Positions 7,784-58,662 of a stretch of DNA of 64,000 bases are shown here, in pieces. Below the pieces are notes generated by a model that did no database searches, was not told the DNA's origin, and saw nothing but the letters and a program-made list of their open reading frames with translations. Made by a program: the position numbers and the translations under genes. The first letter of the stretch is position 1. Every line of letters begins with the position of its first letter. The stretch comes from Acidimicrobiia bacterium UBA5794 (GTDB lineage Bacteria > Actinomycetota > Acidimicrobiia > Spongiisociales > UBA5794). The DNA lies in assembly GCA_002418265.1 (NCBI GenBank), contig DIDS01000014.1, forward strand, positions 72,588 to 136,587, given 5' to 3'.

Positions 7784-7812
7784 TGTCAGACGTCAGACGT
7801 CAGACGTCAGAT
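7784..7812. repeat. Heptamer tandem array (GTCAGAC)x4
   Basis: cagatgtcagacgtcagacgtcagacgtcagatc. Confidence 0.8.
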
Positions 7813-8372
7813 CACGAGTGTGTTGCTGAACCGGCGACGCCTTGAGCGCCGTGCGAGAAGAGGCTCGGTGGTTGTCGTATCTGGTCTTCGAGGAAGACGC
7901 CGATACCGATCGCCAGGAACACATCCCCGAGTGACAGCACAGCAGACGGCAGTGGGATCACATCCGCGAGAAACGGCAGCCGGGTCCCATTCGTGAGCAG
8001 TACGTGCTTGGCGTCAAGGGCCAGATCACCGGTATTCCCTGCGATCCCGGCCGCTTCGAGCAGCACCGGCATCCCACCGTTGAGGGCGATGACCGTGAAG
8101 TTCATGAGTATTCCGAGCCCGGCGAGCCAAAGGCCCGGCAGGTCACGGTTGAGCCAGATGAACAGGAGAAGCGGCAGATAGGAGATGAGCACAAGCGAGA
8201 CAGCGAGTTCGTTCTGGTCGGAGGAGACCCAACCCGATCCTGCAAGGATGATGAACCCGAGCGGAAGTAGCCACCACATGGTGACTCTGATCTCTGTCAG
8301 GTTTCGGAGCTTCCCTCCTCGCAGATACCCGACAGCGATCGATACGACCAATACGAGCGCCATCCACTGCAT
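7812..8372 (-). CDS. Polytopic membrane protein of unknown function
   Basis: 186-aa hydrophobic ORF with 5-6 predicted TM helices; no recognisable motif. Confidence 0.5.
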   Translation of the reverse strand: MQWMALVLVVSIAVGYLRGGKLRNLTEIRVTMWWLLPLGFIILAGSGWVSSDQNELAVSLVLISYLPLLLFIWLNRDLPGLWLAGLGILMNFTVIALNGGMPVLLEAAGIAGNTGDLALDAKHVLLTNGTRLPFLADVIPLPSAVLSLGDVFLAIGIGVFLEDQIRQPPSLFSHGAQGVAGSATHS

Positions 8373-8416
8373 GGCTTCACGTTAGCCGTGGCATCACGTT
8401 CGGTACTGAACGCCTT

Positions 8417-8439
8417 AGTCTGACGTCGGACGTCTGACT
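8417..8439. repeat. Palindromic heptamer element (TCTGACG/GACGTCT) containing the stop codon of the upstream HD-domain gene
   Basis: agtctgacgtcggacgtctgactag. Confidence 0.7.
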
Positions 8440-11123: not shown

Positions 11124-11689
11124 GGTGTTCCTCGGTCAGGGAACGAGAGGCGGCGGCGGACCCGGGAATCTCAGCTAGCCAATCCGGAGTGAGGCCGCGC
11201 CAGCCAGTAAGGCTGCCGCAAGTGTTCCAACGGTCAATGCAAGCTTGATCAATGTGCTCTTCACGAGGGTTGCTCCAGTGGTTTCGTTCCTCTTCACCGA
11301 CATCGTTCGTCAGATCAGGGACTTCCATCGCTTCGCTGGAGTTGTTTCGTTTATGAGCTTCCCAGGCTGTGCCACCACCTCCATCGCCCAGTCGACGTGT
11401 CGCCCAGGCAAATCGTTCATGTCGTTCGGTTCTACGAACATTCCCGTACCGAGAGGCGCCTGATCGTCAACGACGAACACACGTCCCGGACTCCGCCAAG
11501 AGTCCCCGCCGCCTTAGCGCAGGCGGCGGACTGTCAACTTAATGCTCATATCACCCTGTCGCAAGACTTATCGGTCGATTCACCCACTGTGTTGAGCTTT
11601 GCGCGTCAACTCGTGGCTTGTCGCGAACAACCACCGAGAGTCACCTTTGTGCCACACGTGGGGCCATCCATCGACTACTCTCGCTGATC

Positions 11690-13950: not shown

Positions 13951-13953
13951 TGC

Positions 13954-15039
13954 ATGGTTTATCTTGCTGAGCCCGAACATCTCGGTGATCTCCTCCCCAA
14001 CGAGCCCCGCTACCGCACGGACCAACTGACGGAATGGCTGTACCGACATCCGGTGCTCGATGCCTCCGCAATGACCAACCTCCCGGCATCGGTGCGCGAG
14101 TCCATCAGTTCCGATCTCTGGCCGTTCGAGCTCGTCATCGACCAGGTTGGTGACGGAGGAGAAACTCGGAAATGGCTGTTTCGATGTCACGACGGTTCCC
14201 AAATCGAGACGGTCCTGATGGGGTACTCGTCGAGAACGACGCTCTGTATCTCCTCCCAAGTTGGGTGCGCCATGGGGTGTACGTTCTGTGCGACCGGACA
14301 ATTCGGATTCGACCGGCATCTTTCGGCAGGCGAGATCGTCGCGCAGGTCGCGTACGCAAACGCGTACCTGGCGGCCACGCCGCTCCCCCGCAGCCCCGAA
14401 CGAGTCACGAATGTCGTGTTCATGGGCATGGGCGAGCCCCTCGCGAACTACACCCACACACGCGAATCGATCAGGCGAATGATTGAGATCATGGGAATGT
14501 CAGCGCGGTCGATCACCGTATCGACGGTGGGTTTCGTGCCGGGGATGAGAAGGCTGATCGAGGAGCCATGGCCGATGAACCTGGCCGTCAGTCTGCACTC
14601 GACCATCCCTTCCGAACGAACGAAGCTGGTACCCATCAACAAGCGCTATCCGATCGACGATGTCGTGGAGGCCGCCCACGACTACTACAAGGCAAAGGGA
14701 CGGCGCGTGTCGCTCGAATGGACGCTCATCGCAGGTGAGAACGATTCCGACGAAGAGGCGATTGGGCTTGCGCGCATCGCCAGAGAGATCCACGCCCACG
14801 TGAACGTGATCGCTTTGAACCCAACACCACTGAGCACCGATCGCCCACCCGATCGGGACCACGTCAGACGCTTTCTCGCAACACTTGCGCGAGAAGGCGC
14901 AAACGTGACGCTCCGAGACACCCGCGGCCAAGACATCGACGCCGCCTGCGGCCAACTCAGACTCCGAAACTCGCGTACCCAGGGTATGAACCCACCCTCA
15001 CGGTCGTTGTCAGCCCAAAGAACGGGCGAACTACGCTGA
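13954..15039 (+). CDS. rlmN: 23S rRNA (adenine2503-C2)/tRNA methyltransferase RlmN (radical SAM)
   Basis: CAMGCTFCATG radical-SAM motif, VFMGMGEPLANY, and a C-terminal ACGQL. The last roughly 22 codons are encoded by a half-copy of the palindromic repeat found at 32764-32818. Confidence 0.9.
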   Translation: MVYLAEPEHLGDLLPNEPRYRTDQLTEWLYRHPVLDASAMTNLPASVRESISSDLWPFELVIDQVGDGGETRKWLFRCHDGSQIETVLMGYSSRTTLCISSQVGCAMGCTFCATGQFGFDRHLSAGEIVAQVAYANAYLAATPLPRSPERVTNVVFMGMGEPLANYTHTRESIRRMIEIMGMSARSITVSTVGFVPGMRRLIEEPWPMNLAVSLHSTIPSERTKLVPINKRYPIDDVVEAAHDYYKAKGRRVSLEWTLIAGENDSDEEAIGLARIAREIHAHVNVIALNPTPLSTDRPPDRDHVRRFLATLAREGANVTLRDTRGQDIDAACGQLRLRNSRTQGMNPPSRSLSAQRTGELR

Positions 15040-15083
15040 GCATTCCCGTCACACATTCCCGTCACCAACAAGCGAGGTATCTG

Positions 15084-22315: not shown

Positions 22316-24010
22316 CTAGGCGTCGCACTCACTCGATTCGCCGTCAGCATCCGCCCGAATCCCCGCGTCCTGATCCCGGATCACGGAGGCAACCTTGCCC
22401 CGTATCCGTTGAAGATCGGGGATGGGATGACCAATGGTGTCCCAACCTGGCGCGTAGTAGCCGGGGTTGAATCCCACCGTTTCGATGTCCGAGAAATCAA
22501 GCCTCGCGGTCATCTCAAGCATGTCTGCTGCAAAGGTCACGGGCAGATCCGTCACCATCGAACCATCCAGGGCATCGACAATTCCCCCAAGTCCGCGAAG
22601 CAAGGTGAACGGTGTCGACTTGGCGGCGACAGCACGCAACATGCAGCGCTGGCGTTGCATACGGACATAGTCACTCGATCCCTTCCGTGCCCGGACATAG
22701 GCCAACGCCTCAAGACCGTCGAGACGGTGCCACCCGACATCAACATCCACCGTTGCCCACGGATCACCCTCACGGGGAGGTGAGACCTCGGACTGCAATG
22801 GCTCCTGCACATAGACGTCGACACCGCCGATCGCCTCAACGAGGTCCACGAACGCTGCCATGTCCACCAGGACGTAGTAGTCAATCTTGAGACCGGTTGC
22901 GTTCGACAGCACATCGCGTAGTGCCGCCATGCCGGGATCTGCTTCGTTGGGATACGTCTTGGTCCACTTGCGTGTGAACGGATACAGCGCGTTGAGTTGT
23001 TCTGGGAAGCACCGACACGAGGTGAAGCTGTCCACGGTGGTCTGTGTCTCACCCTCAGCCTCGCCCTCAGCCTCGCCCTCGGCCTCGCCCTCAGGTGCTG
23101 TGGCAGTCCTCGCAAGAATCTTTCTCTCAAGACTGGCGAATGCTCCACCCCAACCGGAGGGAAGCGGCATACTTCCCAGATTCCTCGGGAATCCGAACAG
23201 GGCGGCCTTCCCCGTTTGGGGATTGATCGTCGCAACCATCATCGTATCGGTTCGCAATCCACCTCTTCCGGGTCCGCCGTCGCCACCGGCAAGGAGAATC
23301 GTGATCCGGTCCGAACCGACACGTTCCTCGAATGGCAGCAGAGGGACGCCAGCCACCTCGTTCTGCCTTGATGCGAGATCGTTCTCCAACGCCTCGATCG
23401 CATCCGGATCCCCAAATCCCTCCTCAAAGATTCGGCTCCGCACAATCATTTCCGACGTTGCCTCGTGGTGATAGACCGTCACGACCGGATCGGCGACGAT
23501 GTCAGCGTCAGAGCCGACAGGGATCACCGGGGTGTCGGGCGGATCGTTGTCCCCTGCAAAGACGATGTCGAGAAGGCGCATGGCGTCAACGGTCGTCGTT
23601 GCGACGAACACATGTGGCACTACAACGAATGCCACAAGAACGGTTCCGCCCACGATCACCGCTGGCCGCGCCCACTCCCGTTTCGGCGCTTGAGCAAGGA
23701 GATAGGCGTCGACCGCACTCGCCAATCGCCATATCGCGGCAACCACATTTCCAGCAAAAAGGGTCCACAGCGCCGGCTTGGAGAGCGCTGCCCCAACGAG
23801 ATCGAACTTGTCGACATCCAACACGACATAACCAACGAGGACGATCGCGATCGGTGACGCCCACACAGCCGCCCGGAAATAGCGACGAAGGTACAGGTGT
23901 CCGGCACCGGGGATGAGGACGCTCAATCCAGCAGCAATCCAGGGCCGGTGCGGGGCGGGATTGCTGGCACTATCGACATCTTTTGTTCCGAGGGCATCGT
24001 TGTGCGTCAT
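22316..24010 (-). CDS. LytR-CpsA-Psr (LCP) family cell-envelope phosphotransferase, paralog 1
   Basis: N-terminal TM anchor and LCP core (ITILLAGGDGGPGRGGLRTDTMMVATINPQTGKAALFGFPRNL). Contains an (AEGE)x4 in-frame tandem repeat. Confidence 0.85.
   Translation of the reverse strand: MTHNDALGTKDVDSASNPAPHRPWIAAGLSVLIPGAGHLYLRRYFRAAVWASPIAIVLVGYVVLDVDKFDLVGAALSKPALWTLFAGNVVAAIWRLASAVDAYLLAQAPKREWARPAVIVGGTVLVAFVVVPHVFVATTTVDAMRLLDIVFAGDNDPPDTPVIPVGSDADIVADPVVTVYHHEATSEMIVRSRIFEEGFGDPDAIEALENDLASRQNEVAGVPLLPFEERVGSDRITILLAGGDGGPGRGGLRTDTMMVATINPQTGKAALFGFPRNLGSMPLPSGWGGAFASLERKILARTATAPEGEAEGEAEGEAEGETQTTVDSFTSCRCFPEQLNALYPFTRKWTKTYPNEADPGMAALRDVLSNATGLKIDYYVLVDMAAFVDLVEAIGGVDVYVQEPLQSEVSPPREGDPWATVDVDVGWHRLDGLEALAYVRARKGSSDYVRMQRQRCMLRAVAAKSTPFTLLRGLGGIVDALDGSMVTDLPVTFAADMLEMTARLDFSDIETVGFNPGYYAPGWDTIGHPIPDLQRIRGKVASVIRDQDAGIRADADGESSECDA
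23044..23100. repeat. In-frame 12-nt tandem repeat (4 copies) inside LCP paralog 1, encoding (AEGE)4
   Basis: ctcagcctcgccctcagcctcgccctcggcctcgccctc on the plus strand. Confidence 0.8.
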
Positions 24011-25735: not shown

Positions 25736-25836
25736 GTCAGACGTCAGACGTCAGAGAGCCCCCCTGCCCCTCGCTGCGCTCGGCGCGTCCCCCCGCAAGC
25801 GGGAGGACGGGAAGAAGAAGTCAGACGTCAGAAACC
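25736..25836. repeat. Composite intergenic repeat: (GTCAGAC)x3, GC-rich hairpin module, (GTCAGAC)x2
   Basis: gtcagacgtcagacgtcagagAGCCCCCCTGCCCCTCGCTGCGCTCGGCGCGTCCCCCCGCAAGCGGGAGGACGGGAAGAAGaagtcagacgtcagaa; sits in the divergent LCP/typA promoter region. Confidence 0.8.
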
Positions 25837-27694: not shown

Positions 27695-27706
27695 CCGCGC
27701 GACATC

Positions 27707-27812
27707 CGATGACCGATGACCGTACTCCGATGACCGTACTCTGAAATCAAGAGTCCAGCTCGTTGGACTCCACGTATCGGTTATCGGTAATCGGTAATCG
27801 GTAGTCGGACTT
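27707..27812. repeat. Long imperfect palindrome built from heptamer arrays (CCGATGA/CCGTACT on the left, ATCGGTT/ATCGGTA on the right) around a central hairpin; likely bidirectional terminator between typA and ppiC
   Basis: ccgatgaccgatgaccgtactccgatgaccgtactc...gagtccagctcgttggactc...tatcggttatcggtaatcggtaatcggtagtcgg. Confidence 0.7.
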
Positions 27813-32763: not shown

Positions 32764-32818
32764 CGCGTACCCAGGGTATGAACCCACCCTCACGGTCGGT
32801 TCATACCCTGGGTACGCG
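32764..32818. repeat. Perfect 20-bp-stem palindrome (loop 13 nt); a half-copy lies in the rlmN 3' end
   Basis: GCGTACCCAGGGTATGAACC-caccctcacggtc-GGTTCATACCCTGGGTACGC. The left arm plus loop recur at about 14973-15007. Confidence 0.85.
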
Positions 32819-33502: not shown

Positions 33503-33505
33503 GAA

Positions 33506-33532
33506 TCTGACGTCTGACGTCTGAGATCAGAC
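33506..33532. repeat. Heptamer tandem array (TCTGACG)x3
   Basis: tctgacgtctgacgtctgagatcagac, immediately after the stop codon of the PG-binding lipoprotein. Confidence 0.8.
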
Positions 33533-34056: not shown

Positions 34057-34135
34057 TCAGAAGTCAGACGTCAGACGTCAGACGTCAGACGTCAGATGCT
34101 GTGAGCTGTGAGCCGTAAGCTGTGAGCAGCGAGTA
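34057..34135. repeat. Longest heptamer array: (GTCAGAC)x6 followed by (GCTGTGA/GCCGTAA)x5, upstream of aceE
   Basis: tcagaagtcagacgtcagacgtcagacgtcagacgtcagatgctgtgagctgtgagccgtaagctgtgagcagcgag. Confidence 0.85.
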
Positions 34136-36848: not shown

Positions 36849-36855
36849 AAACGGA

Positions 36856-36890
36856 GCTCACAGCTAACAGCTGACAGCTTTCGGCTCCTT
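36856..36890. repeat. Heptamer tandem array (GCTCACA/GCTAACA/GCTGACA...)x5
   Basis: gctcacagctaacagctgacagctttcggctcctt. Confidence 0.7.
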
Positions 36891-37029
36891 GCCTTCCACT
36901 CTTTGAACCGTGAACTGTGAGCTTCTTTGTGCCGATTCTGTGGTACAAGCAGCCCCCATTCCGCTACCGTGCCTCCATGGGACGAACCTCGTTCGTCCAT
37001 TCCCATGCAAACTAAGGAGGAACAAGACG

Positions 37030-41999: not shown

Positions 42000-42990
42000 C
42001 CAGCCGCTCATTGAGCTGACCGATCTGGTCAAGCAGTTCCCGGTCAGGGGTGGGGTCCTCCAGCGACAGGTCGCGACGGTCAATGCCGTCGCTGGTGTGA
42101 GCATGACGATCTCGCGCGGCGAGACCGTTGGGCTCGTCGGTGAGTCGGGATGCGGCAAATCCACCCTTGGCCGTTTGCTGACACGGCTGCTTGAACCGAC
42201 GTCAGGGAAAATCATCTTCGACGGCGCCGACATCACACACCTCCAAGGCAAGCAGCTCAAGCCGTTCCGGAAACGTGTCCAGATCATCTTCCAAGATCCG
42301 TACTCCTCCCTTGATCCACGGACCCAGGTCGGGAACTCGATCTCAGAGGGTCTCAAGCTCCACGGCATCGGGGACAAGGATGAACGGCGCGACCGAGTCA
42401 CCAAGATGCTCGAACTCGTGGGGCTTGAGGCACATCATGCGAGCCGATTCCCACACGAATTCTCTGGAGGACAACGTCAGCGGATCGGCATCGCGCGAGC
42501 TCTCATCCTCGAGCCCGATTTCGTTGTTGCTGACGAACCCGTGTCGGCGCTCGATGTCTCCGTCCAAGCCCAAGTCCTCAACCTGTTGAAGGAGTTACAG
42601 TCGGAGCTGGATCTGACACTGTTGTTCATCGCGCACAACCTCGCGGTGGTCGAGCACATCTCGGACCGTGTCGCCGTCATGTATCTGGGCAGAATTGCAG
42701 AAATCACCGACCGCGAGAGCCTCTACAAGAACCCGCTCCATCCCTACACCGAAGCATTGCTCTCTGCGATCCCGATCCCCGACCCCGATCGTCCCCGGAA
42801 TCGCACGATTCTCCAGGGCGAGGTGCCCTCCCCGATCGACCCACCATCGGGGTGCTTCTTCCATCCGCGGTGCCCGATCGCTGTCGAAGGTGTGTGCGAT
42901 GTCGAGGTACCCCAACTCGAGCAATCGACGACGAGCGCTGATCACCTCGCGGCCTGCCACGTCCGAACGGGCCGCCTGAGCCGGCTGTGA
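41992..42990 (+). CDS. ABC transporter ATP-binding protein (DppF/OppF-like)
   Basis: Walker [10 protein letters not shown], signature FSGGQRQR. The stop codon lies inside the first unit of the downstream heptamer array. Confidence 0.85.
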
Positions 42991-43020
42991 GCCGAAAGCT
43001 GTGAGCCGAAAGCTGAAATA
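42984..43020. repeat. 14-mer (two-heptamer) tandem array, (GCTGTGAGCCGAAA)x2 plus GCTGAAA
   Basis: gctgtgagccgaaagctgtgagccgaaagctgaaata. Confidence 0.8.
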
Positions 43021-43040
43021 GTTGGGCGCAGAGCGTCCGA

Positions 43041-43754
43041 CTATTTCTTCAATACGAGTCGAATCGCCACAATCGCGGCTTCATACAAGATGTAGAGCGG
43101 CACGGCGAGCATCATCAGGGTGAGTGGATCCCCGCTGGGGGTGATGACGGCTGCGGCAATGAGGATCAAGACAATGGCCCACCGGCGGTTGGAGCGAAGG
43201 GTCTTGCTCGTCAGCATGCCGAATGCGGCGGCGGCGAAGAGGAACACCGGGAACTGGAATGCAATCCCGAACGCGAGAAGGAACCGCATTGCAAATTTCA
43301 GGTAGTAGTCGGCACCGATGACAGGAACAAGGGCGTCCCCTCCAAAGCCAAGGAGAAAAACCAGTCCACGCTCGAGCGCCAGATACCCCACGAACACGCC
43401 AAGAAGAAAGAGAAACGCAAGGACAGCGACGATCGGAATGACCCAGCGTTTTTCACGCTTCGACAACGCAGGTTCGACGAACCGCCACACCTGATAGGTG
43501 ATGACAGGGCTCGCAAGGATTGCCCCTCCCCACAGCGAGAGACGCATCACGACGCTGAACGCTTCGGTCACCTTGAATGTTGCAAGGGCAGCATCGGGAT
43601 CGAGCTTGCGATACGGTTCGACGAGCAAGTCGAGAATCTGCTCATTGAAGATGAAAGCGATCACCGTTCCGATGCCGAGAGCGATGACGGACTTGATGAG
43701 CCGCTGGCGCAGCTCCACGAGATGTTCGGAGAACGGCATCGTCGTCGCCGTCAT
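43041..43754 (-). CDS. tatC: Twin-arginine translocase subunit TatC
   Basis: Six-TM TatC with EHLVELRQRL near the N-terminus. Confidence 0.9.
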   Translation of the reverse strand: MTATTMPFSEHLVELRQRLIKSVIALGIGTVIAFIFNEQILDLLVEPYRKLDPDAALATFKVTEAFSVVMRLSLWGGAILASPVITYQVWRFVEPALSKREKRWVIPIVAVLAFLFLLGVFVGYLALERGLVFLLGFGGDALVPVIGADYYLKFAMRFLLAFGIAFQFPVFLFAAAAFGMLTSKTLRSNRRWAIVLILIAAAVITPSGDPLTLMMLAVPLYILYEAAIVAIRLVLKK

Positions 43755-44141: not shown

Positions 44142-44275
44142 ACCTTCAGGGAGGCGTGCGAGCCAGCGAACCCCGTCAGTCCGACGTCGGAAAGCCCCCC
44201 TGCACCTCGCTGCGCTCGGCGCGTCCCCCCGCAAGCGGGAGGACGGATATGGGAGAAAGCTGAAAGCTCTCTAAC
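44142..44275. repeat. Composite repeat: GCGTGCGAGCC...CCCCGTC box, short GACGTC element, GC-rich hairpin module, (AGCTGAA)x2
   Basis: ggaggcgtgcgagccagcgaaccccgtcagtccgacgtcggaaAGCCCCCCTGCACCTCGCTGCGCTCGGCGCGTCCCCCCGCAAGCGGGAGGACGGatatgggagaaagctgaaagctctc. This is nearly the same arrangement as 2341-2452. Confidence 0.8.
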
Positions 44276-49498: not shown

Positions 49499-49569
49499 GG
49501 AGAGAACCCTAGCTCTCAGCACCCAGCTCCCAAGCGGGAGTTGGTCCCCTTGTCCTTTGTCTCCCACAC

Positions 49570-49660
49570 CCGTCCTCCCGCTTGCGGGGGGACGCGAGGA
49601 GCGAAGCGACGATGCAGGGGGGGGCAGTCCGACTTCTGACTTCTGACTTCTGACTTCTGG
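49570..49660. repeat. GC-rich hairpin module (inverted orientation) plus (GACTTCT)x4 heptamer array
   Basis: ccgtcctcccgcttgcggggggacgcgaggagcgaagcgacgatgcaggggggggcagtccgacttctgacttctgacttctgacttctgg. Confidence 0.8.
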
Positions 49661-49661
49661 C

Positions 49662-51029
49662 TTACAGGCCTCGCATCAAGAACGCGGCAGCTTGTTCCCG
49701 TGTCAAGGTTTCGGTCGCTCCAAAGCTCCCATCCTCGTGGCCGAGGGCGATCCCGAGCTCGTGGGCAAGTTCAATCTTGCCCACAAGGGGATGATCGGGA
49801 CCGATGTCGGTGAAGTAGCCCTGATACTGGGGATAGTTGGTCTTGCCAAGGGCATCCATCAGCACCGAAACAAGGAAGCCCCGTTCCCCTGGCGAGCCGC
49901 CATCAAATGGGCCTCCAGCGCGAAGCGCTCCAATTTCAACAAGGTACTCGACCGATCCGACAAACCAGGCGTCTGAGGACACGTCGTTGAAGTACGCCCG
50001 ATACGACGGGTAACTCTTCTCGCCGCCGACGGCTCTGGCAATCATCGTCGCTGCCTGTGCGCGCGTAACCGTAGCCGCGGGACAGTATGAGTTCCAGGTG
50101 CATCCAATCGTTATTCCCCGCGCTGCCATCTGTTCGATCTGTGCTTCGGCGTACGAGCCGTCGTCGTCAACGAATGTGCCCTCATAGGTGCCAACACGCG
50201 ACGTATCCGATACCACGCCGTGAGGACCGAAATCGACCACCACATCATGGATTCCCGGTTCGGTGTTCCCATCCCACCAGACAGCCTCGGTGCCGGATCC
50301 GGTGTGCGTCCAAACGACCTTTCCGGACCCCTGGCGAATCTGGATCGTCCAGTTCACGATCGCATCGGCTTCAATGTTGAGCGTCCCACCTTGGGGGGCC
50401 GCGACCGTTTTGAACGATCCGAAGTCGACCGAGAATTGTGCATCGATCTGTTCGGCGGGAACCGCGGCGAGGAGGTAGGGATTCGGGTCCACGGGCGTGC
50501 CGTCGGGCTGGTGATACTCGAAGTGAAGATGAGAGCCAACGTTCTCGGCGTTGCCGGAGTCGCCGACCCAGCCAATGAGTTGTCCTGCCGAAACGCGGAC
50601 TCCGGGCGCAATGCCTTCGGCGATTCCCCAACCCGCACCGTCGTCGGTTCCGGGTGTGTCGTTGTTGAGGTGGATGTACCACGACTCCCAGCCATCGTCG
50701 TGTGTGAGAGCAATCGTGCAGCAACGATCGGGGTTCAGGTTGCCGGGATCCGAACTCCAATTGACGTACCGGATGACACCATTGGCTGCGGCGACAACCG
50801 GAGTCATCTTGGCTGCCATCAGATCGTCGCCTTCGTGGTAGCGGCTACAACCGGCCCGACATGCGCCAAAGTTGTCCGTGTTGTTGACCTTGCCGACGAC
50901 CGGGAAGACGAGGGGAAGATCCTGGGTAACTGCCTTGGCCGGTGGTGGAGCCAAGACGATGATGGTGGCAAGGGCTGTCAGCGCAACAATGGCCGCCACA
51001 GCCCCGAATTGCCTCTGGGAGCGGGCCAT
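49662..51029 (-). CDS. Secreted M23-family metallopeptidase with C-terminal S-layer-homology (SLH) domains
   Basis: Signal peptide, M23 motifs (HEGDDLMAA...HLHFEYH), and two or three SLH-like repeats (FNDVSSDAWFVGSVEYLVEIGAL; FTDIGPDHPLVGKIELAHELGIALG). Confidence 0.8.
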   Translation of the reverse strand: MARSQRQFGAVAAIVALTALATIIVLAPPPAKAVTQDLPLVFPVVGKVNNTDNFGACRAGCSRYHEGDDLMAAKMTPVVAAANGVIRYVNWSSDPGNLNPDRCCTIALTHDDGWESWYIHLNNDTPGTDDGAGWGIAEGIAPGVRVSAGQLIGWVGDSGNAENVGSHLHFEYHQPDGTPVDPNPYLLAAVPAEQIDAQFSVDFGSFKTVAAPQGGTLNIEADAIVNWTIQIRQGSGKVVWTHTGSGTEAVWWDGNTEPGIHDVVVDFGPHGVVSDTSRVGTYEGTFVDDDGSYAEAQIEQMAARGITIGCTWNSYCPAATVTRAQAATMIARAVGGEKSYPSYRAYFNDVSSDAWFVGSVEYLVEIGALRAGGPFDGGSPGERGFLVSVLMDALGKTNYPQYQGYFTDIGPDHPLVGKIELAHELGIALGHEDGSFGATETLTREQAAAFLMRGL

Positions 51030-53009: not shown

Positions 53010-53022
53010 GATTGCTGCGGTG

Positions 53023-53799: not shown

Positions 53800-53827
53800 C
53801 GTATGAGGCTATCACCGCGTCCCGACG

Positions 53828-54160
53828 TCAGACGTAGGCGAGGCCGATCATCACGGCAAAGGCGCCAAGGGGGACAAGCAGGAGTATGACCAGGCGGATG
53901 ACGGTCTGATCGAAGACCAACGCGAGAAACACCGATCCAATGATTCCGGCAAACCACAACGCCGTCATCATCAGGACCACGAAGCGCAGAAGGCCACCCC
54001 AATCGGGGTCATCGGACTGGACAAGGCCAACAACCCCGAAGGTCCCAGCCACCACAACCTGGACGATGACTGCGGCTTTTTCGAGACGCGACAACGGGCG
54101 ACGAGACTTCTCAGGATTGACCATATGGCGCAGAAGATACTGTGTGGATGGATCCTGCAA
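53828..54160 (-). CDS. Small 3-TM membrane protein, unknown function; possibly first gene of the mod operon
   Basis: 110-aa hydrophobic ORF 28 nt upstream of modA. Confidence 0.4.
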   Translation of the reverse strand: MQDPSTQYLLRHMVNPEKSRRPLSRLEKAAVIVQVVVAGTFGVVGLVQSDDPDWGGLLRFVVLMMTALWFAGIIGSVFLALVFDQTVIRLVILLLVPLGAFAVMIGLAYV

Positions 54161-54218
54161 GTGGCATGGTCAGCGAGGACGCAGATCTCTCGTTGATCAC
54201 GATGGGGGACGGTGCGGA

Positions 54219-54256
54219 TGTCAGAAGTCAGAAGCTGAAAGCTGTGAGCTGAAAGC
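54219..54256. repeat. Heptamer array (GTCAGAA)x2 and (GCTGAAA/GCTGTGA)x3
   Basis: gtcagaagtcagaagctgaaagctgtgagctgaaagcc. Confidence 0.8.
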
Positions 54257-54272
54257 CGGGGTCGAAGACCCC

Positions 54273-54292
54273 CTGAGTGAGTGCTCACTCAG
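54273..54292. promoter_or_regulatory. Perfect 9-2-9 inverted repeat, candidate TetR operator, about 20 nt upstream of the TetR gene
   Basis: CTGAGTGAG-tg-CTCACTCAG, preceded by a small hairpin GGGGTC-gaa-GACCCC. Confidence 0.4.
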
Positions 54293-54310
54293 TGGTATGC
54301 TTGATTGGTT

Positions 54311-54928
54311 ATGGTCAAACAGACTCGTGCGAAACCCATGTCCACTGAGGATCGCCAGCAGGCAATCCTCGATGCTGTCACACCGCTGATCGTTGAGCGG
54401 GGGTCCAAGGTCACGACGTCGGAGATGGCCAAGGCCGCGGGCGTTGCTGAGGGAACCATCTACTCGGTGTTCCCGGACAAGCACTCACTGATCATTGCTG
54501 CAGTGCGGGCTTCCCTCGATCCTGCTGCGGTGCAGGCGGCTGTTGGCAACATCGATCGCACCCAATCCCTTCAGATGCAGCTCCAGGATGCTGCGACGAT
54601 TCTTGCGGATCGTATCGAACGAGTGATGGCGCTCTTTGATGCGCTCCGTTCGCTTCCCAATCACAGCCATCACGATGGCAAACACGCCAGACGCTTCATC
54701 GCCCAAACAGAGGCGGCAGTCACCGAGACCCTCACGGAGCTGTTGGAAGCACACCGGGACGACCTTGCGATCGAGCCAGTCCGTGCCGCGTCAGCCCTTC
54801 GCGGTCTCATCTTTGCGATCCGCCATCCGATGCTCCCCCCTGACCAACGCCTCACCGTCGAAGAAGCCGTGACAATTCTGATCTCGGGGATCGCCAGCCG
54901 ACACACCACGACGAAGACAGGCTCGTAG
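54311..54928 (+). CDS. TetR-family transcriptional regulator
   Basis: HTH TSEMAKAAGVAEGTIYSVF. Start ambiguous among TTG 54305, ATG 54311 and ATG 54338. Confidence 0.8.
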   Translation: MVKQTRAKPMSTEDRQQAILDAVTPLIVERGSKVTTSEMAKAAGVAEGTIYSVFPDKHSLIIAAVRASLDPAAVQAAVGNIDRTQSLQMQLQDAATILADRIERVMALFDALRSLPNHSHHDGKHARRFIAQTEAAVTETLTELLEAHRDDLAIEPVRAASALRGLIFAIRHPMLPPDQRLTVEEAVTILISGIASRHTTTKTGS

Positions 54929-54937
54929 GGGATTCCG

Positions 54938-56671
54938 ATGCTGATCCGTCTGCTCAGGAGCCACCTTGCACCGTACAAGCGCTGGATCATGATCATCGTT
55001 GCACTCCAGTTCGTTGCGACCGTGGCATCACTCCTGCTCCCGAGCCTCAACGCCGACATCATCGACAAGGGTGTTGTCACCGGTGATACCGACTACATCC
55101 TGCGCATCGGTTCGATCATGCTCGCCGTGTCTGCGCTTCAAGTCATCGCGTCAATCTCCGCTGTGTACTTCGGGGCAAAGACGGCGATGGCATTCGGCAG
55201 AGACCTCAGGAGCTCAATCTTCCGCAAGGTTGCGTCCTTTTCGACACGTGAGATGTCCCACTTCGGTGCCCCGTCGCTGATCACCCGCAACACGAACGAT
55301 GTCCAGCAGGTCCAGATGCTCGCCATGATGACATTCACGCTCATGGTGATGGCACCCATCATGATGGTTGGAGGCATCATCATGGCACTGCGTGAAGATG
55401 TCGGACTGTCATGGCTTGTGGCAGTCGCCGTTCCGCTGCTCGCCGCCATCCTTGCGATCGTGATCTCGCAGATGATCCCGGCTTATCGCAAGATGCAGAT
55501 TCGGATCGACACGGTGAACCGGGTGCTCCGGGAGCAGCTGAGCGGAATCCGGGTGCTTCGCGCTTTCGTTCGTGAGCCATACGAGACCGATCGATTCGAA
55601 AAGGCCAACCAAGAGCTCACGGACGTGTCGCTCACGGTCGGACGGTGGATGGCAGCAATGTTCCCCATCGTGATGCTCATCCTGAACCTGACGAGCGTTG
55701 CCGTGTTGTGGTTCGGCGGACACCGAGTCGACGCAGGGACAATGGAGATCGGTGCGCTTACCGCATACCTCACCTACCTCATCCAGATCCTGATGTCGGT
55801 CATGATGGCCACGTTCACGTTCGTGATGGTTCCGAGGGCGGCAGCGAGCGCCGATCGCATCGGCGAGGTCCTTGACACCGAATCGTCCGTCGTACCACCG
55901 GAATCGGGGATCACCGCGGTCGATCGACATGGTGAGGTTCAATTTCTCGATGTCGAGTTCACCTATCCGGGGGCGAGTGATCCGGTTCTTCGTGACATCA
56001 ACCTCACCGCACGAGCCGGTCAGACAACCGCAATCGTTGGATCCACCGGGGCAGGCAAGACAACCCTGATGAATCTGATACCGAGGCTCTTCGACGCAAC
56101 CTCGGGAACGGTGCTCGTCAATGGTGTGGATGTCCGAAACCTTGATCCCGACTTCCTCTGGAGTCGGATCGGGCTGATCCCCCAGAATCCATACCTGTTC
56201 ACCGGCACAGTTGCATCGAACCTGCGATACGGCAAACCGGATGCCACCGAAGCCGAGATGTGGCGAGCGCTCGAGATTGCCCAGGCGCGAGGCTTCGTCG
56301 AGGACATGCCCGAAGGCCTTGACGCACCGATCGCACAGGGTGGTACCAATGTTTCGGGCGGCCAACGACAGCGTCTTTCGATTGCCCGAGCACTGATCCG
56401 CTCCCCCGAGATCTACCTGTTCGATGACTCGTTTTCTGCGCTCGATCTTGCAACCGACGCTCGGCTTCGTGCCGCCCTCACCGCGGTGACGACGCAAGCA
56501 ACCGTCATCATCGTCGCGCAGCGGATCTCGTCGATCAAAAGCGCAGACCAGATTGTCGTGCTCGACGATGGCGCCATCGTGGGAATCGGAACACACGGTG
56601 AACTGCTCGAATCGTGCCAGACCTACGCCGAGATTGTCGAGTCGCAACAGATGGCCGAGGTGCCGCGATGA
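54938..56671 (+). CDS. ABC exporter, fused permease/ATPase (type I exporter, half-transporter 1)
   Basis: Six-TM domain followed by an NBD with Walker A GSTGAGKTTL and signature VSGGQRQR. Confidence 0.85.
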   Translation: MLIRLLRSHLAPYKRWIMIIVALQFVATVASLLLPSLNADIIDKGVVTGDTDYILRIGSIMLAVSALQVIASISAVYFGAKTAMAFGRDLRSSIFRKVASFSTREMSHFGAPSLITRNTNDVQQVQMLAMMTFTLMVMAPIMMVGGIIMALREDVGLSWLVAVAVPLLAAILAIVISQMIPAYRKMQIRIDTVNRVLREQLSGIRVLRAFVREPYETDRFEKANQELTDVSLTVGRWMAAMFPIVMLILNLTSVAVLWFGGHRVDAGTMEIGALTAYLTYLIQILMSVMMATFTFVMVPRAAASADRIGEVLDTESSVVPPESGITAVDRHGEVQFLDVEFTYPGASDPVLRDINLTARAGQTTAIVGSTGAGKTTLMNLIPRLFDATSGTVLVNGVDVRNLDPDFLWSRIGLIPQNPYLFTGTVASNLRYGKPDATEAEMWRALEIAQARGFVEDMPEGLDAPIAQGGTNVSGGQRQRLSIARALIRSPEIYLFDDSFSALDLATDARLRAALTAVTTQATVIIVAQRISSIKSADQIVVLDDGAIVGIGTHGELLESCQTYAEIVESQQMAEVPR

Positions 56672-58635
56672 CCAGCAGCGGCAAGAACGGGGAGCTCAAA
56701 ACAACCGAGCGTGTGGTGGCACAGGGAGGCCCCGGGCGTGGAATGGGCGGCGGACAGATCGCCCAGAAACCGTTGGCATTCAAGGAGTCAGGGAAGCGGC
56801 TGCTGAACAGGCTCAGACCGCAAGGGCTGAAGGTGGCCTTTGTGTTGCTCGCAGCCATTGTGAGCGTCGGCCTCGCATCCCTTGGTCCACGCGTCCTCGG
56901 ACGTGCGACCGACCTGATCTTCGCCGGTGCCATCGGGGGCCAGCTGCCTGCGGGAATGACGAAGCAACAAGTGATTGATTCCGCAACAGCTTCGGGTAAT
57001 CACAAGCTGGCGGACATGCTCTCAGGCATCGACATTGTGCCGGGCACCGGCATCGACTTTCGAGCGGTCGGCACCGTTCTTCTCATCGTCATTGTCCTCT
57101 ACGTCGGATCAGCATTGCTGTCCTTCCTCCAGGGGTACCTCCTCAACGACGTCGTTCAGGACACAGTCATGAAACTTCGCGCTGAAGTTGAGGACAAGAT
57201 CCACAAACTGCCGCTCAGCTACTTCGACCGCCAACCCCGTGGTGAACTCCTCTCGCGGGTGACCAACGACATCGACAATGTGTCCCAAAGTCTTCAGCAG
57301 ACAATGAGTCAGCTCCTCACGTCGCTCCTCACCGTCGTCTTCGTGGTGATAATGATGGTTTTGATCTCCCCTGTCCTTGCTCTGATTGCTCTGATCACCA
57401 TCCCGGTAACCATGGTCATTGCTGCCCTGATCATGACGCGGTCCCAGAAACAGTTCGTGACCCAGTGGAGACGGACCGGGACGGTCAACGCCCAGGTCGA
57501 GGAGGCATTCACCGGGCATTCGCTGATCAAGGTGTTTGGACGCCAGGACGAAGTGCAAGACGTGTTCGAGTCCGAGAACGAGCAGCTCTATGAGGCAAGC
57601 TTCTCGGCCCAGTTCCTCTCCGGCCTGATCATGCCGATCATGATGTTCATTGGGAATTTGAACTATGTGATCATCGCGGTCATCGGGGGACTGCGGGTCG
57701 CGAGCGGAACGATGAGTCTCGGGGATGTGCAGGCGTTCATCCAATACTCGCGTCAGTTCACCCAGCCCGTCACCCAGATTGCCTCAATGGTGAACCTGCT
57801 CCAATCAGGGGTCGCATCAGCAGAACGCGTCTTCGAACTCCTCGACGCCGAGGAAGAAGAGCCAACCGACCATCATCCACGAATGGTCGACAACCCTCGT
57901 GGTCGCGTGGTGTTTGAGGACGTCTCGTTCCGCTACGAGCCGGACCAGCCCCTGATCGAGGATCTGTCGATGGTGGTCGAGCCCGGACAGACGGTTGCCA
58001 TCGTTGGACCCACCGGCGCCGGCAAGACGACGCTCGTGAACCTGATCATGCGCTTCTACGAACTCGACGGCGGTCGTATCACCCTCGATGGTGTCGACAC
58101 CTCGCTCATGCCGCGTGCTGACCTGCGATCCCGGATCGGGATGGTGCTCCAGGACACGTGGTTGTTCAAGGGAACGATCCGCGACAACATCGCGTACGGC
58201 AATCCCGATGCCACCGAAGACGAGCTCCTTGAAGCCGCGAAGGCAACGTTCGTGGACCGCTTCGTCCACAGCCTTCCCGACGGCTATGACACCGTCATCG
58301 ACGACGAGGGGACAAACATCTCATCTGGTGAAAAACAGCTCATCACCATCGCGAGAGCCTTCGTCGCGCAGCCAGCACTCCTGATTCTGGATGAAGCAAC
58401 GAGCTCTGTTGACACGCGCACCGAACTGCTCGTACAGCACGCCATGGCAGCGCTCCGATCCGATCGAACGAGCTTTGTCATTGCTCACCGGCTGTCAACG
58501 ATCCGGGACGCCGATCTCATCCTTGTGATGGAGGAGGGACGCATCGTCGAGCGGGGGACCCATGGGGAACTCCTCGATCGCAATGGAGCCTATGCGTCGC
58601 TGTACAACTCGCAATTCGGCATGTCTGACGTCTGA
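56668..58635 (+). CDS. ABC exporter, fused permease/ATPase (half-transporter 2; heterodimer partner)
   Basis: Walker A GPTGAGKTTL and signature SSGEKQL. ATGA overlap with the upstream gene. The last four codons (MSDV-stop) lie inside the palindromic heptamer array. Confidence 0.85.
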   Translation: MTSSGKNGELKTTERVVAQGGPGRGMGGGQIAQKPLAFKESGKRLLNRLRPQGLKVAFVLLAAIVSVGLASLGPRVLGRATDLIFAGAIGGQLPAGMTKQQVIDSATASGNHKLADMLSGIDIVPGTGIDFRAVGTVLLIVIVLYVGSALLSFLQGYLLNDVVQDTVMKLRAEVEDKIHKLPLSYFDRQPRGELLSRVTNDIDNVSQSLQQTMSQLLTSLLTVVFVVIMMVLISPVLALIALITIPVTMVIAALIMTRSQKQFVTQWRRTGTVNAQVEEAFTGHSLIKVFGRQDEVQDVFESENEQLYEASFSAQFLSGLIMPIMMFIGNLNYVIIAVIGGLRVASGTMSLGDVQAFIQYSRQFTQPVTQIASMVNLLQSGVASAERVFELLDAEEEEPTDHHPRMVDNPRGRVVFEDVSFRYEPDQPLIEDLSMVVEPGQTVAIVGPTGAGKTTLVNLIMRFYELDGGRITLDGVDTSLMPRADLRSRIGMVLQDTWLFKGTIRDNIAYGNPDATEDELLEAAKATFVDRFVHSLPDGYDTVIDDEGTNISSGEKQLITIARAFVAQPALLILDEATSSVDTRTELLVQHAMAALRSDRTSFVIAHRLSTIRDADLILVMEEGRIVERGTHGELLDRNGAYASLYNSQFGMSDV

Positions 58636-58662
58636 CGTCTGACGTCGGAGGTCGGACGTCAG
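58623..58662. repeat. Palindromic heptamer array (TCTGACG)x3-ggaggtcg-GACGTCAG that supplies the stop codons of both convergent genes (ABC exporter on +, mobB on -)
   Basis: gtctgacgtctgacgtctgacgtcggaggtcggacgtcagtg. Confidence 0.8.

What the first reader, a model, noticed from the sequence alone, without database searches (positions are those of the whole stretch)
7784..58662. Genome-specific family of intergenic heptamer tandem arrays (GTCAGAC/GACGTCA and GCTGTGA/GCTGAAA/GCCGAAA units) at 14 or more loci
Short tandem arrays with a strict 7-nt period recur throughout the window at about 2374, 7784, 8417, 25736, 25818, 27707, 33506, 34057, 36856, 42984, 44247, 49631, 54219 and 58623.
- They sit almost always immediately 3' of a stop codon or in divergent promoter gaps. 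They occur in both orientations, and the GTCAGAC and GCTGTGA subfamilies are often juxtaposed.
- The core GACGTC is itself palindromic, so arrays can fold into hairpins. I could not match them to a described REP/MIRU/BOX family.
- They could be terminator or REP-like elements, protein-binding arrays, or copy-number-variable simple repeats.
Basis: seen in the sequence. Interest (0 to 1): 0.7.

Follow-up and report, generated by a model that had tools for sequence, protein, structure and literature searches.

The report
Intergenic seven-base tandem repeat family
About a third of the gaps between genes in this uncultured Acidimicrobiia genome hold short tandem arrays of 7-base units; they are a new example of a known but unexplained kind of bacterial simple repeat, they change length by whole units, and they are absent from some close relatives.

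Summary
Period 7 is the only enriched tandem period in the window. There are 16 perfect arrays of at least 2 copies against 4.1 in shuffles, and 7 arrays of at least 19 nt against 0.02. All 14 listed loci were verified and a few more were found. All lie in intergenic gaps or on ORF ends.

The window is from an Acidimicrobiia MAG (GCA_027494075.1). The arrays belong to a known class, over-represented heptanucleotide simple-sequence repeats. Known examples are cyanobacterial STRR, Xanthomonas GGGAATC, Beggiatoaceae TAACTGA and Geobacter MTYCTGA.

- **Slippage:** an orthologous locus in a relative differs by exactly 3 units (21 nt).
- **Turnover:** other orthologous gaps carry different units, and some relatives have no arrays at all.
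- **Distribution:** (GACGTCA)3 occurs in more than 115 loci across many phyla, so the unit is not genome-specific.
- **Hairpins:** inverted array pairs in convergent gaps fold into strong hairpins (z -4.9 and -5.3). Direct arrays do not.
- **Nested element:** a 55-nt hairpin-bearing core is nested in or beside arrays at 4 loci, giving mosaic elements.

Most likely these are slippage-driven, selfish or neutral repeats tolerated at gene 3' ends, some co-opted as terminator-like hairpins. The verdict is a new member of a known kind, of moderate interest.

The parts
2098..2488 (.). Mosaic repeat region in the convergent gap between an HTH gene and aconitase. It holds two 199-nt tandem copies built from a GTTCCCCC/GGGGGAAC hairpin module (3 copies), two other short modules, a heptamer array and REP-like cores.
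   Evidence: The hairpin 2095-2130 folds at -22.7 kcal/mol, z -5.2.
2372..2389 (+). (CAGACGT)2.6 array directly 5' of REP-like core copy 1.
2391..2445 (+). REP-like 55-nt core copy 1: GCCCCCCTGCaCCTCGCTGCGCTCGGCGCGTCCCCCCGCAAGCGGGAGGACGG, containing the hairpin GTCCCCCCGC/GCGGGAGGAC.
7780..7811 (+). (CAGACGT)4.6 array. It starts 0 nt after the stop codon of the DUF5317 gene (minus strand) and fills the stop-proximal half of a 54-nt co-directional gap.
8418..8438 (-). GTCTGAC GTCGGAC GTCTGAC array abutting the stop codon of an HD-domain gene, with 1 nt of overlap.
   Evidence: Folds at z -2.8.
25736..25755 (+). (GTCAGAC)2.9 array, the left part of an array interrupted by core copy 2. It lies in the divergent gap between the LytR-family gene and typA.
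25758..25812 (+). REP-like core copy 2, nested between two GTCAGAC arrays.
25820..25832 (+). (GTCAGAC)1.9 array, the right part of the interrupted array.
27706..27741 (+). CCGATGA/CCGTACT array. It is the left arm of a long hairpin, 11 nt after the typA stop.
27775..27808 (-). (ATCGGTA)4.7 array, an inverted partner of the CCGATGA array. It is the right arm, 4 nt from the rotamase stop.
   Evidence: The gap 27695-27812 folds at -51.8 kcal/mol, z -5.26.
33506..33532 (-). (TCTGACG)2.7 followed by GATCAGAC, 3 nt after the PG_binding gene stop. The orthologous gap in L131 carries (CCGATGA)-type units instead.
34057..34097 (+). (TCAGACG)5.7 array starting 0 nt after the Flavin_Reduct stop. It is 3 units (21 nt) longer than the ortholog in L131.
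34098..34127 (+). (GCTGTGA)4.3 array directly abutting the previous array. It is identical in L131 and ends 18 nt before the PDH E1 start.
36855..36922 (.). Reverse-orientation GCTGWRA units (TCACAGC TAACAGC TGACAGC TTTCGGC) with a short forward partner (ACTGTGAGC), 6 nt after the PDH E1 stop.
   Evidence: Folds at z -2.2.
42984..43018 (+). (GCTGTGA GCCGAAA)2.3 array. The TGA stop of the oligopeptide ABC ATPase gene lies in the first unit. A 13-bp hairpin follows at 43017-43045.
   Evidence: z -4.6, mostly from the hairpin.
44147..44268 (+). Composite element made of module GCGTGCGAGCC..CCCCGTC, then GTCCGACGTCGGA, then REP-like core copy 3 (44194-44248), then GAAAGCTGAAAGCT. It is paralogous to 2338-2445 and ends 2 nt from the HPP gene stop.
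49511..49663 (-). Composite element on the minus strand made of (GTCAGAA)4.7, then REP-like core copy 4 (49565-49621), then degenerate GCTG-type units. It lies next to the M23 peptidase stop.
53824..53835 (+). Minimal GACGTCAGACGT array (1.7 units) at the end of a small ORF.
54217..54258 (+). (GTCAGAA)2 directly followed by GCTGAAA GCTGTGA GCTGAAA GCC, in the divergent gap upstream of a TetR gene.
58623..58660 (.). (GTCTGAC)3 plus GTCGGAGGTCGGACGTC. The sequence is self-complementary and spans the whole 23-nt convergent gap. It supplies the TGA stop of the ABC transporter gene and reaches the mobB stop.
   Evidence: Folds at -31.7 kcal/mol, z -4.85.

Best explanation
These are a lineage-specific family of heptanucleotide simple-sequence repeats. 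That is the same kind of element as cyanobacterial STRR and the heptamer repeats of Xanthomonas, Beggiatoaceae and Geobacter. Here they are woven into a mosaic of small REP-like intergenic modules.

Shown:
- The arrays are strictly period 7 and confined to intergenic gaps.
- They change length by whole units between related genomes.
- Their unit sequence is replaced over short evolutionary distances.
- They are dispensable, since some relatives have none.
- Inverted pairs form very stable hairpins.

Inferred:
- Arrays grow and shrink by replication slippage.
- The same units appear at many loci because arrays are copied as modules of larger mosaic repeats, or are homogenised by ectopic recombination or template switching.
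- They persist mainly just downstream of stop codons and in convergent gaps because insertions there do least harm.
- Inverted pairs in convergent gaps have been co-opted as bidirectional terminator-like or 3'-end-protecting hairpins.
- Direct arrays are probably near-neutral passengers that can modulate neighbouring expression only incidentally.
For: - **Period-7 enrichment.** Only period 7 is enriched.
- **Intergenic placement.** Arrays lie in gaps and abut stop codons at 0-11 nt in 10 or more cases.
- **Whole-unit indel.** The ortholog of 34057-34097 in L131 has an exact 21-nt (3-unit) gap, and the neighbouring GCTGTGA array is identical.
- **Unit replacement.** The PG_binding/Flavin_Reduct gap has TCTGACG in the window and CCGATGA in L131, in phase.
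- **Different units at the same gaps.** This is seen in L119, L132-134, L135 and L136.
- **Within-species difference.** L136 and L137 differ in the 7th unit.
- **Relatives without arrays.** L118 and L120-124, at 88-89% TypA identity, have none.
- **Mosaic copying.** The 105-nt composite 2338-2445 recurs at 44147-44250 with a different unit number. The core always has GTCmGAC units on its 5' side and once sits inside an array.
- **Hairpins of inverted pairs.** Their z-scores are -3.3 to -7.1, here and in other phyla.
- **Inverted partners are common.** 55 of 367 neighbouring array pairs are inverted-related.
- **Bias towards 3' ends.** Arrays fall in 39 convergent gaps against 11 divergent.
- **Period 7 dominates elsewhere.** In 813 kb from array-bearing genomes of many phyla there are 108 arrays of period 7, against 14 of period 6 and 5 of period 8.
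- **Literature.** Heptamers are the most abundant long SSR class in most genomes, and polymerase slippage has been proposed as the cause (PMC4679880 introduction; PMC4692102).
Against: - Pure local slippage does not explain why one genome uses the same two or three units at 15 or more loci. It also does not explain the recurrent fixed order (GTCAGAC)n then (GCTGWRA)n, seen at 34057, 54217, 44179-44268 and 49511-49663, and in L096 and L119.
- No transposition hallmarks (terminal inverted repeats plus target duplications) were found that would explain the spread.
- The hairpins lack a following T-run, so terminator activity is unproven.
- No expression data exist.
- Why 7 nt is favoured remains unexplained.
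- Only 64 kb of the 2.73-Mb genome could be read.
- Two independent assemblies of the same strain showed no length difference, so within-population instability is not demonstrated.
Confidence: 0.62

Rival explanations
1. The arrays are arms or modules of a non-autonomous mobile mosaic element, MITE-like or BIME-like. The heptamer arrays plus a core are copied to new intergenic sites by an enzyme encoded elsewhere, and slippage only modulates arm length afterwards.
For: - The order (GTCAGAC)n, optional 55-nt core, (GCTGWRA)n is fixed at 4 window loci and in L096 and L119.
- A 105-nt composite recurs at two distant loci.
- The core always joins the same side of GTCmGAC units and once sits inside an array.
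- In a Porticoccaceae MAG, inverted arrays with a conserved 7-nt inner extension flank 80-100-nt cores at 6 or more loci.
- The same unit families (GTCAGAC, GCTGTGA, CCGATGA) sit at different loci in the window and in L131.
Against: - No target-site duplications or sharp insertion boundaries appear in alignments with array-free relatives.
- No transposase or RAYT gene lies in the window.
- The cores between the Porticoccaceae arms are not homologous to each other.
- The exact 22-nt core is almost absent outside this lineage.
Confidence: 0.2
2. The arrays are multivalent binding sites, on DNA or on the transcribed RNA, for a lineage-specific protein. They would form a global regulatory or nucleoid-organising network.
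For: - One genome keeps the same units at many unlinked loci, which selection for a common binding factor would explain.
- Similar proposals exist for Geobacter MTYCTGA and GGACCGG heptamer sets (PMC2700814), for Beggiatoaceae TAACTGA (PMC4679880) and for Nostoc heptamers that affect recF/recO reporters (bioRxiv 10.1101/2022.06.06.494920).
- Several units share a CTGA end (CGTCTGA, CTTCTGA, AAGCTGA), as do TAACTGA and MTYCTGA.
Against: - The arrays show no consistent orientation relative to flanking genes, and the gene functions are unrelated.
- Close relatives lack the arrays, or carry other units at the same gaps, with the same genes.
- Copy number is loosely distributed, from 1.7 to 5.7 units.
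- No candidate binding protein was identified.
Confidence: 0.12
3. The arrays are contingency loci, where unit gain or loss switches the expression of adjacent genes (phase variation).
For: - Whole-unit length change is seen at 34057-34097, just upstream of PDH E1.
- Some arrays lie in 5' gaps (25736, 34057-34127, 54217).
Against: - Most arrays are 3' of genes or in convergent gaps.
- The flanking genes are housekeeping genes (aconitase, PDH E1, typA, tatC), not surface or variable functions.
- The known cases of phase variation involve mostly 1-5-nt units in host-adapted pathogens (PMC4692102).
Confidence: 0.05

Closest known systems
Over-represented heptanucleotide long simple-sequence repeats of bacteria (Mrazek, Guo and Shah 2007, as summarised in PMC4679880 and PMC4692102)
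   Same: - Tandem 7-nt units.
- Heptamers are the dominant long-SSR period.
- Mainly intergenic.
- Phylogenetically patchy. Actinobacteria were among the richest genomes.
- Slippage was proposed as the origin.
   Different: That work was a statistical survey. It did not describe this unit set, this lineage (Acidimicrobiia), the fixed two-array order or the nested 55-nt core.
Cyanobacterial STRR sequences (Mazel et al. 1990; from my own knowledge, and cited in PMC4692102 as three tandemly repeated heptanucleotides in Calothrix PCC 7601). Small dispersed repeats nested in heptamer arrays in Nostoc (Elhai et al. 2008) are cited from memory only; the paper is not held in the library.
   Same: - Several genome-specific heptamer units are amplified at many intergenic loci.
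- Both orientations occur.
- Short hairpin-bearing elements are nested inside arrays.
- The function is unknown.
   Different: - The units differ (CCCCAGT, TTGGTCA, CAACAGT).
- The phylum and G+C content differ.
- STRR arrays can be much longer.
Xanthomonas GGGAATC and Nostoc GGGGAYT repeats (Rehm et al. 2015, PMC4692102)
   Same: - About 180 intergenic heptamer arrays per genome, mostly around 4 units.
- Some occur as inverted pairs in convergent gaps.
- The same gaps are occupied in related species, with extensive length and sequence variation.
   Different: Those units are G-rich and form G-quadruplexes. The units here have no G-runs and cannot.
Beggiatoaceae/cyanobacterial/Bacteroidetes TAACTGA repeats (MacGregor 2015, PMC4679880)
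   Same: - The same heptamer is amplified in unrelated phyla with no evident transfer mechanism.
- Arrays have 2-6 copies.
- They are intergenic.
- The unit ends in CTGA, like CGTCTGA, CTTCTGA and AAGCTGA here.
   Different: TAACTGA arrays sit mostly just upstream of start codons in one orientation. Here the arrays are mostly just downstream of stop codons and in either orientation.
Geobacter metallireducens heptanucleotide sets (Aklujkar et al. 2009, PMC2700814)
   Same: - Four to five tandem heptamers at 16-49 loci.
- The class-3 sites have the consensus MTYCTGA, which includes CTTCTGA, the unit at 49627-49663.
- The sites are drawn as paired, strand-switching sites.
   Different: - They were annotated as putative global-regulator sites or RNA elements without any test.
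- Some lie inside genes.
REP/BIME elements of enterobacteria
   Same: - Small intergenic modules combined in mosaics.
- Enriched at gene 3' ends and in convergent gaps.
- Hairpin-forming.
- Lineage-specific.
   Different: - REPs are 20-40-nt imperfect palindromes, not tandem 7-mers.
- REPs have an associated RAYT transposase. No such gene was seen in the 64 kb available.

Membership tests
Heptanucleotide simple-sequence repeat family (LSSR / STRR-like) | Head-to-tail tandem copies of a 7-nt unit, more frequent than chance. | tested here: met
   There are 16 perfect arrays of at least 2 copies against 4.06 in shuffles, and 7 of at least 19 nt against 0.02. No other period from 7 to 12 is enriched.
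Heptanucleotide simple-sequence repeat family (LSSR / STRR-like) | The same unit or units recur at many unlinked loci of one genome, predominantly intergenic. | tested here: met
   GTCWGAC-type units occur at 11 or more loci and GCTGWRA-type units at 6 loci in 64 kb. All lie in gaps or on ORF ends.
Heptanucleotide simple-sequence repeat family (LSSR / STRR-like) | Length changes in whole units between related genomes. | tested here: met
   A 21-nt (3-unit) gap separates the window from L131 at 34057-34097. L136 and L137 differ in their 7th unit.
STRR sensu stricto (cyanobacterial) | Units CCCCAGT, TTGGTCA or CAACAGT in heterocystous cyanobacteria. | tested here: not met
   The units here are GTCAGAC, GCTGWRA and CCGATGA. 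The host is an Acidimicrobiia MAG.
REP/BIME | A 20-40-nt imperfect palindrome unit, in alternating orientations. | tested here: not met
   The arrays are direct 7-mers. Only the nested 55-nt core carries a 10-bp hairpin.
REP/BIME | An associated RAYT (Y1 transposase) gene in the genome. | not testable with these tools
   Only 64 kb of the 2.73 Mb could be read. No transposase domain is present in the window ORFs that were scanned.
MITE | Terminal inverted repeats plus a target-site duplication, with filled and empty sites between relatives. | tested here: inconclusive
   Inverted array pairs exist. Alignments with array-free relatives show no sharp boundaries or duplications.
Intrinsic (factor-independent) terminator | A stable G+C-rich hairpin directly downstream of a stop codon. 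| tested here: met
   This holds for inverted pairs only. 27695-27812 has z -5.3 and 58615-58670 has z -4.9. Direct arrays have z -0.8 to -1.5.
Intrinsic (factor-independent) terminator | A U-tract following the hairpin, and a measured 3' end. | tested here: not met
   No T-run follows either hairpin (sequence). 3' ends could not be measured.
Phase-variation contingency locus | An SSR inside an ORF or a promoter/5'-UTR, whose length switches expression of a variable-function gene. | tested here: not met
   Most arrays are 3' of housekeeping genes. The effect on expression is untested.
CRISPR array | Repeats of 24-48 nt separated by unique spacers of similar length. | tested here: not met
   The units are 7 nt and contiguous.
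Any Rfam RNA family | A match at the gathering threshold. | tested here: not met
   There were 0 matches in the whole window.

The most novel reading that the evidence does not exclude
Heptamer arrays are not mere slippage products. They would be the working parts of a widespread, still undescribed class of mobile or templated intergenic elements. Each element would have arms made of heptamer arrays around a variable core. They would be generated or copied by an enzyme with an intrinsic 7-nt step, and this would explain three things:
- why period 7 dominates in unrelated phyla;
- why one genome shares units across loci;
- why the same units (GACGTCA, CCGATGA, NNNCTGA types) recur from Acidimicrobiia to Gemmatimonadota, Acidobacteriota and Gammaproteobacteria.
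Probability: 0.12. Interest if true: 0.8.

Novelty: new member of a known kind. Interest (0 to 1): 0.38.

Why it matters
Heptanucleotide repeat families have been seen in cyanobacteria since 1990 and across bacteria since 2007. It is still not known why 7 nt is favoured, how one genome comes to use the same units at hundreds of loci, or whether the arrays do anything.

This window adds a compact, well-resolved case in a new lineage, with three useful properties:
- Orthologous gaps in a graded series of relatives show absence, whole-unit length change and unit replacement.
- There is a fixed two-array order with a nested hairpin core, which points to copying of mosaic modules rather than slippage alone.
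- There is a clear split between inverted pairs, which give strong hairpins at convergent gene ends, and direct arrays, which have no special structure.

Practical consequence: short-read assemblies break at these arrays. They therefore fragment MAGs of this clade, and they could serve as strain markers of the VNTR (variable-number tandem repeat) type.

Tried and rejected
- **Rfam.** A search of the whole window at gathering threshold gave no match. ARAGORN found no tRNA or tmRNA.
- **Cyanobacterial origin.** I suspected this because of the STRR-like repeats and some GCGATCGC sites. Gene content and TypA homologs show Acidimicrobiia instead.
- **REP-like core in metagenomes.** The metagenome scan with the 22-nt core, intended as a genome-wide sample of core copies, returned a single 1-kb contig. 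That collection evidently lacks the source sample.
- **Phage vector.** A viral-contig scan for (GACGTCA)3 found nothing, so there is no hint of a phage vector.
- **Within-population length variation.** None was detected. The JGI contig L116 is identical to the window over 21.8 kb. The Logan contigs of the same strain are identical as far as they extend, and they end inside the long array.
- **Orientation rules.** I looked for one relative to transcription, and for TGA-containing strands relative to the upstream gene. Both were mixed and no rule emerged (sequence).
- **Stop-side versus start-side placement.** Crude ORF calling across the 115 foreign loci gave only a weak stop-side preference in co-directional gaps (33 against 24). 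Its 44 'in ORF' calls are mostly spurious long ORFs in high-GC DNA.
- **Missing papers.** The library does not hold Mrazek 2007 or Elhai 2008. Mrazek 2007 is cited through papers that summarise it, and Elhai 2008 from memory.
- **Cross-phylum frequency of GACGTCA.** Whether this unit is commoner across phyla than other heptamers could not be tested, because only one genome-collection scan is allowed.

Full report
**Source and setting.** The window is 59% G+C. It carries ordinary housekeeping genes: aconitase, enoyl-CoA hydratase, HD-domain proteins, a PAS histidine kinase, LytR-family proteins, typA, a PPIase, PDH E1, an oligopeptide ABC system, tatC/tatA, molybdopterin oxidoreductases and mobB. 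The TypA protein is 100% identical to one from an 'Acidimicrobiia bacterium' MAG. The window maps exactly onto GCA_027494075.1, contig JAOSJN010000001.1 (2,728,709 bp), starting near position 1,924,259.

**Check of the observation.** Against 100 dinucleotide-preserving shuffles, period 7 is the only strongly enriched period.

| Measure, period 7 | Observed | Shuffle mean |
|---|---|---|
| Perfect arrays of at least 2 copies | 16 | 4.06 (maximum 9) |
| Arrays of at least 19 nt | 7 | 0.02 |

Periods 4, 5 and 8-12 are at expectation. Using public gene calls for part of the window and Pfam-supported ORFs elsewhere, every array lies in an intergenic gap or overlaps only the final codons of an ORF. 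About 14-15 of roughly 45 gaps are occupied. The arrays are not assembly artefacts. An independent JGI contig is identical over 21.8 kb, and three Logan assemblies from other runs are identical over the parts they cover. Those Logan contigs all end 36 nt into the long array at 34057, so the repeats break short-read assemblies.

**Anatomy: units and placement.** There are three unit families:
- GTCAGAC, which is the same array as GACGTCA, with variants GTCAGAA, GTCGGAC and GACTTCT
- GCTGTGA/GCTGAAA/GCCGAAA
- CCGATGA/CCGTACT, with an inverted ATCGGTA partner

Copy numbers run from 1.7 to 5.7 units. Arrays very often begin within 0-11 nt of a stop codon (sequence):
- 0 nt at 7812 and 34057
- 1 nt of overlap at 8438
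- 3 nt at 33503

At 42984 and 58623 the TGA stop of the upstream gene lies inside the array.

**Anatomy: order and the nested core.** The first two unit families occur in a fixed order, (GTCAGAC)n followed by (GCTGWRA)n. They abut directly at 34057-34127 and 54217-54258. At 44179-44268 and 49511-49663 (reverse strand) they are separated by a 55-nt G+C-rich core, GCCCCCCTGC...GTCCCCCCGCAAGCGGGAGGACGG. That core occurs four times in the window and always has GTCmGAC units on its 5' side. At 25736-25832 it sits inside a GTCAGAC array. A 105-nt composite (a GCGTGCGAGCC... module, heptamers, then the core) recurs at 2338-2445 and 44147-44250 with different unit numbers. The convergent gap 2098-2488 is a mosaic of such modules, including a 199-nt tandem duplication and three copies of a strong hairpin. 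The heptamer arrays are therefore one module type in a REP/BIME-like mosaic system.

**Structure.** Direct arrays, despite the palindromic GACGTC core, do not fold better than dinucleotide shuffles (z -0.8 to -1.5). Arrays present as inverted pairs do:
- 27695-27812: -51.8 kcal/mol, z -5.26. The two arrays extend the stem of a central hairpin.
- 58615-58670: -31.7 kcal/mol, z -4.85. This hairpin fills the 23-nt gap between the convergent ABC-transporter and mobB genes.

The same holds in other genomes:
- L002: z -6.7, directly after a TAG stop
- L001: z -7.1
- L136: z -3.5 and -3.3

No T-run follows these hairpins.

**Evolution at orthologous loci.** This is the most informative result.
- **Relatives without arrays.** L118 and L120-124, at 88-89% TypA identity, have no heptamer arrays in 6-22 kb of syntenic DNA.
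- **Closer or parallel relatives do have arrays.** L119 (TypA 93%) has arrays both upstream and downstream of typA but with partly different units: TCCAGCT, GTCAGAA, GCTGAAA/GCTGTGA and TTTTGGC. It also has a shorter version of the core.
- **A clean whole-unit indel.** L131 (Flavin_Reduct 92%) aligns through the whole PG_binding/Flavin_Reduct/PDH E1 region. Its array after the Flavin_Reduct stop is the same composite as in the window but lacks exactly three GTCAGAC units (a 21-nt gap). The adjoining GCTGTGA array is identical.
- **Unit replacement.** In the preceding gap L131 has (CCGATGA)-type units where the window has (TCTGACG), in the same phase.
- **Other units at the same gaps.** L132-134, L135 and L136/137 (87-89%) carry yet other units at the same gaps: CAGTTGA, YYCAGAT, ACCGCCT/GGCGGTA, AACAGAG/TCTGTCC and CGCCTAC/GTAGGCG. 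Several are inverted pairs. L136 and L137, which have the same protein but come from different samples, differ in the seventh unit of a TCTGTCC array.

So the occupied gaps are fairly stable, but length and unit sequence turn over quickly, and the arrays are dispensable.

**Distribution beyond the lineage.** They come from Gemmatimonadota, Acidobacteriota, Armatimonadota, Gammaproteobacteria, Streptomyces, several Acidimicrobiia and others. Single MAGs contribute 10-15 contigs each. In those 813 kb, the non-seed arrays of about 3 or more perfect copies number 108 for period 7, against 14 for period 6 and 5 for period 8, with 63 different units. Arrays fall in convergent gaps far more often than divergent ones (39 against 11, with crude ORF calls). 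Inverted partner arrays are common. L096, from another Acidimicrobiia MAG, shows the same (GTCAGAC)n ... (GCTGAAA)n order. The exact 22-nt core is confined to this lineage. Viral contigs gave no hit.

**What is known.** The literature held here states that heptanucleotide repeats are the most abundant long simple-sequence repeats in most bacterial genomes, that they are phylogenetically patchy, and that Actinobacteria are among the richest. A DNA-polymerase slippage explanation has been proposed (Mrazek et al. 2007, as summarised in PMC4679880 and PMC4692102). Specific families are described:
- Cyanobacterial STRR.
- Xanthomonas GGGAATC and Nostoc GGGGAYT. These include inverted pairs in convergent gaps, and length and sequence variation between related species (PMC4692102).
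- TAACTGA in Beggiatoaceae, cyanobacteria and Bacteroidetes (PMC4679880).
- Geobacter GGACCGG and MTYCTGA sets (PMC2700814).

One preprint reports reporter effects of Nostoc heptamers (10.1101/2022.06.06.494920). No family has an established function.

**Interpretation.** The finding is a genuine and striking feature, but it is a new member of a known kind. The best-supported model has four parts:
- Arrays expand and contract by slippage. This is shown by the whole-unit indel.
- Arrays are copied or homogenised between loci as parts of mosaic modules. This is inferred from shared composites and the fixed order.
- Arrays accumulate where they are tolerated, just beyond stop codons.
- When inverted, arrays provide long hairpins that probably act as terminators or 3'-end protectors. 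This is inferred from folding and position only.

The rivals cannot be excluded with sequence alone, and I rank them lower for the reasons given in their entries. They are a dedicated mobile element, a protein-binding network and phase variation. Two things remain unexplained: why period 7 is favoured, and why one genome converges on a few units.

Noticed in passing
window 2391-2445, 25758-25812, 44194-44248 (+) and 49565-49621 (-): A 55-nt G+C-rich dispersed element, GCCCCCCTGC..GTCCCCCCGCAAGCGGGAGGACGG, with a 10-bp hairpin. It has four copies in 64 kb, each next to heptamer units. A shorter version is in relative L119, and one copy is on metagenome contig L125. It has no Rfam match.
   Followed up: partly
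window 2098-2488: The convergent gap between an HTH gene and aconitase is a 391-nt mosaic. It holds a 199-nt tandem duplication, three copies of the hairpin CTGTTCCCCCTTCAGGGGGAAC (z -5.2), and the repeated modules GGCGAGTCTTCGAGCCATGGG and GCGTGCGAGCCTGCGAGCCCCGTC. The last module is also at 44154.
   Followed up: partly
window 32764-32818 and 14972-15004: A near-perfect 25-nt-arm palindrome, CGCGTACCCAGGGTATGAACCCACC / GGTCGGTTCATACCCTGGGTACGCG, lies upstream of the PG_binding gene. One arm is repeated at the 3' end of the transaldolase-like ORF. Related sequence (GGTTCATACCCTGGGTACGCG) is present in relatives L118 and L136. It may be a conserved hairpin or an operator.
   Followed up: no
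window 54275-54292: A perfect palindrome, GAGTGAGTGCTCACTCAG, lies just upstream of the TetR gene (54305-54928). It is conserved upstream of the TetR gene of L118 and is probably the TetR operator.
   Followed up: no
L128, L129, L130 (Logan contigs of the same strain): All three contigs end exactly 36 nt into the array at window 34057. The repeated heptamers therefore break short-read assemblies, which will fragment MAGs of this clade at intergenic gaps.
   Followed up: yes
L004, L030, L070, L078, L081, L105 (Porticoccaceae MAG JBJHDJ01 and a related MAG): At 6 or more loci, (GTCTGAC)n plus GCCAAGA or GCAAAAG sits on the left and TCTTGGC or CTTTTGC plus (GTCAGAC)n sits on the right. They flank cores of a constant 80-100 nt that are not homologous to each other. 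So the inverted heptamer arms are conserved and the centres vary.
   Followed up: partly
window units, and the literature: Written in one phase, several units end in CTGA: CGTCTGA, CTTCTGA and AAGCTGA. So do TAACTGA (Beggiatoaceae and cyanobacteria) and MTYCTGA (Geobacter). Tandem copies then place TGA in all three frames on one strand. This is not universal (CCGATGA, ACCGCCT and TCTGTCC do not fit), and I had no unbiased sample to test it.
   Followed up: partly
window 23048-23094: A 12-nt tandem repeat (CTCGCCCTCAGC, 3.9 copies) lies inside the LytR-family ORF 22316-24010. It is an in-frame coding repeat unrelated to the heptamers.
   Followed up: no
window 15041-15065: A 13-nt direct duplication (CATTCCCGTCACA, 1.9 copies) fills most of the 44-nt gap between two co-directional genes.
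   Followed up: no
whole window: The octamer GCGATCGC, known as HIP1 in cyanobacteria, occurs 9 times. My rough composition estimate is about 2. The excess is probably a codon effect.
   Followed up: no
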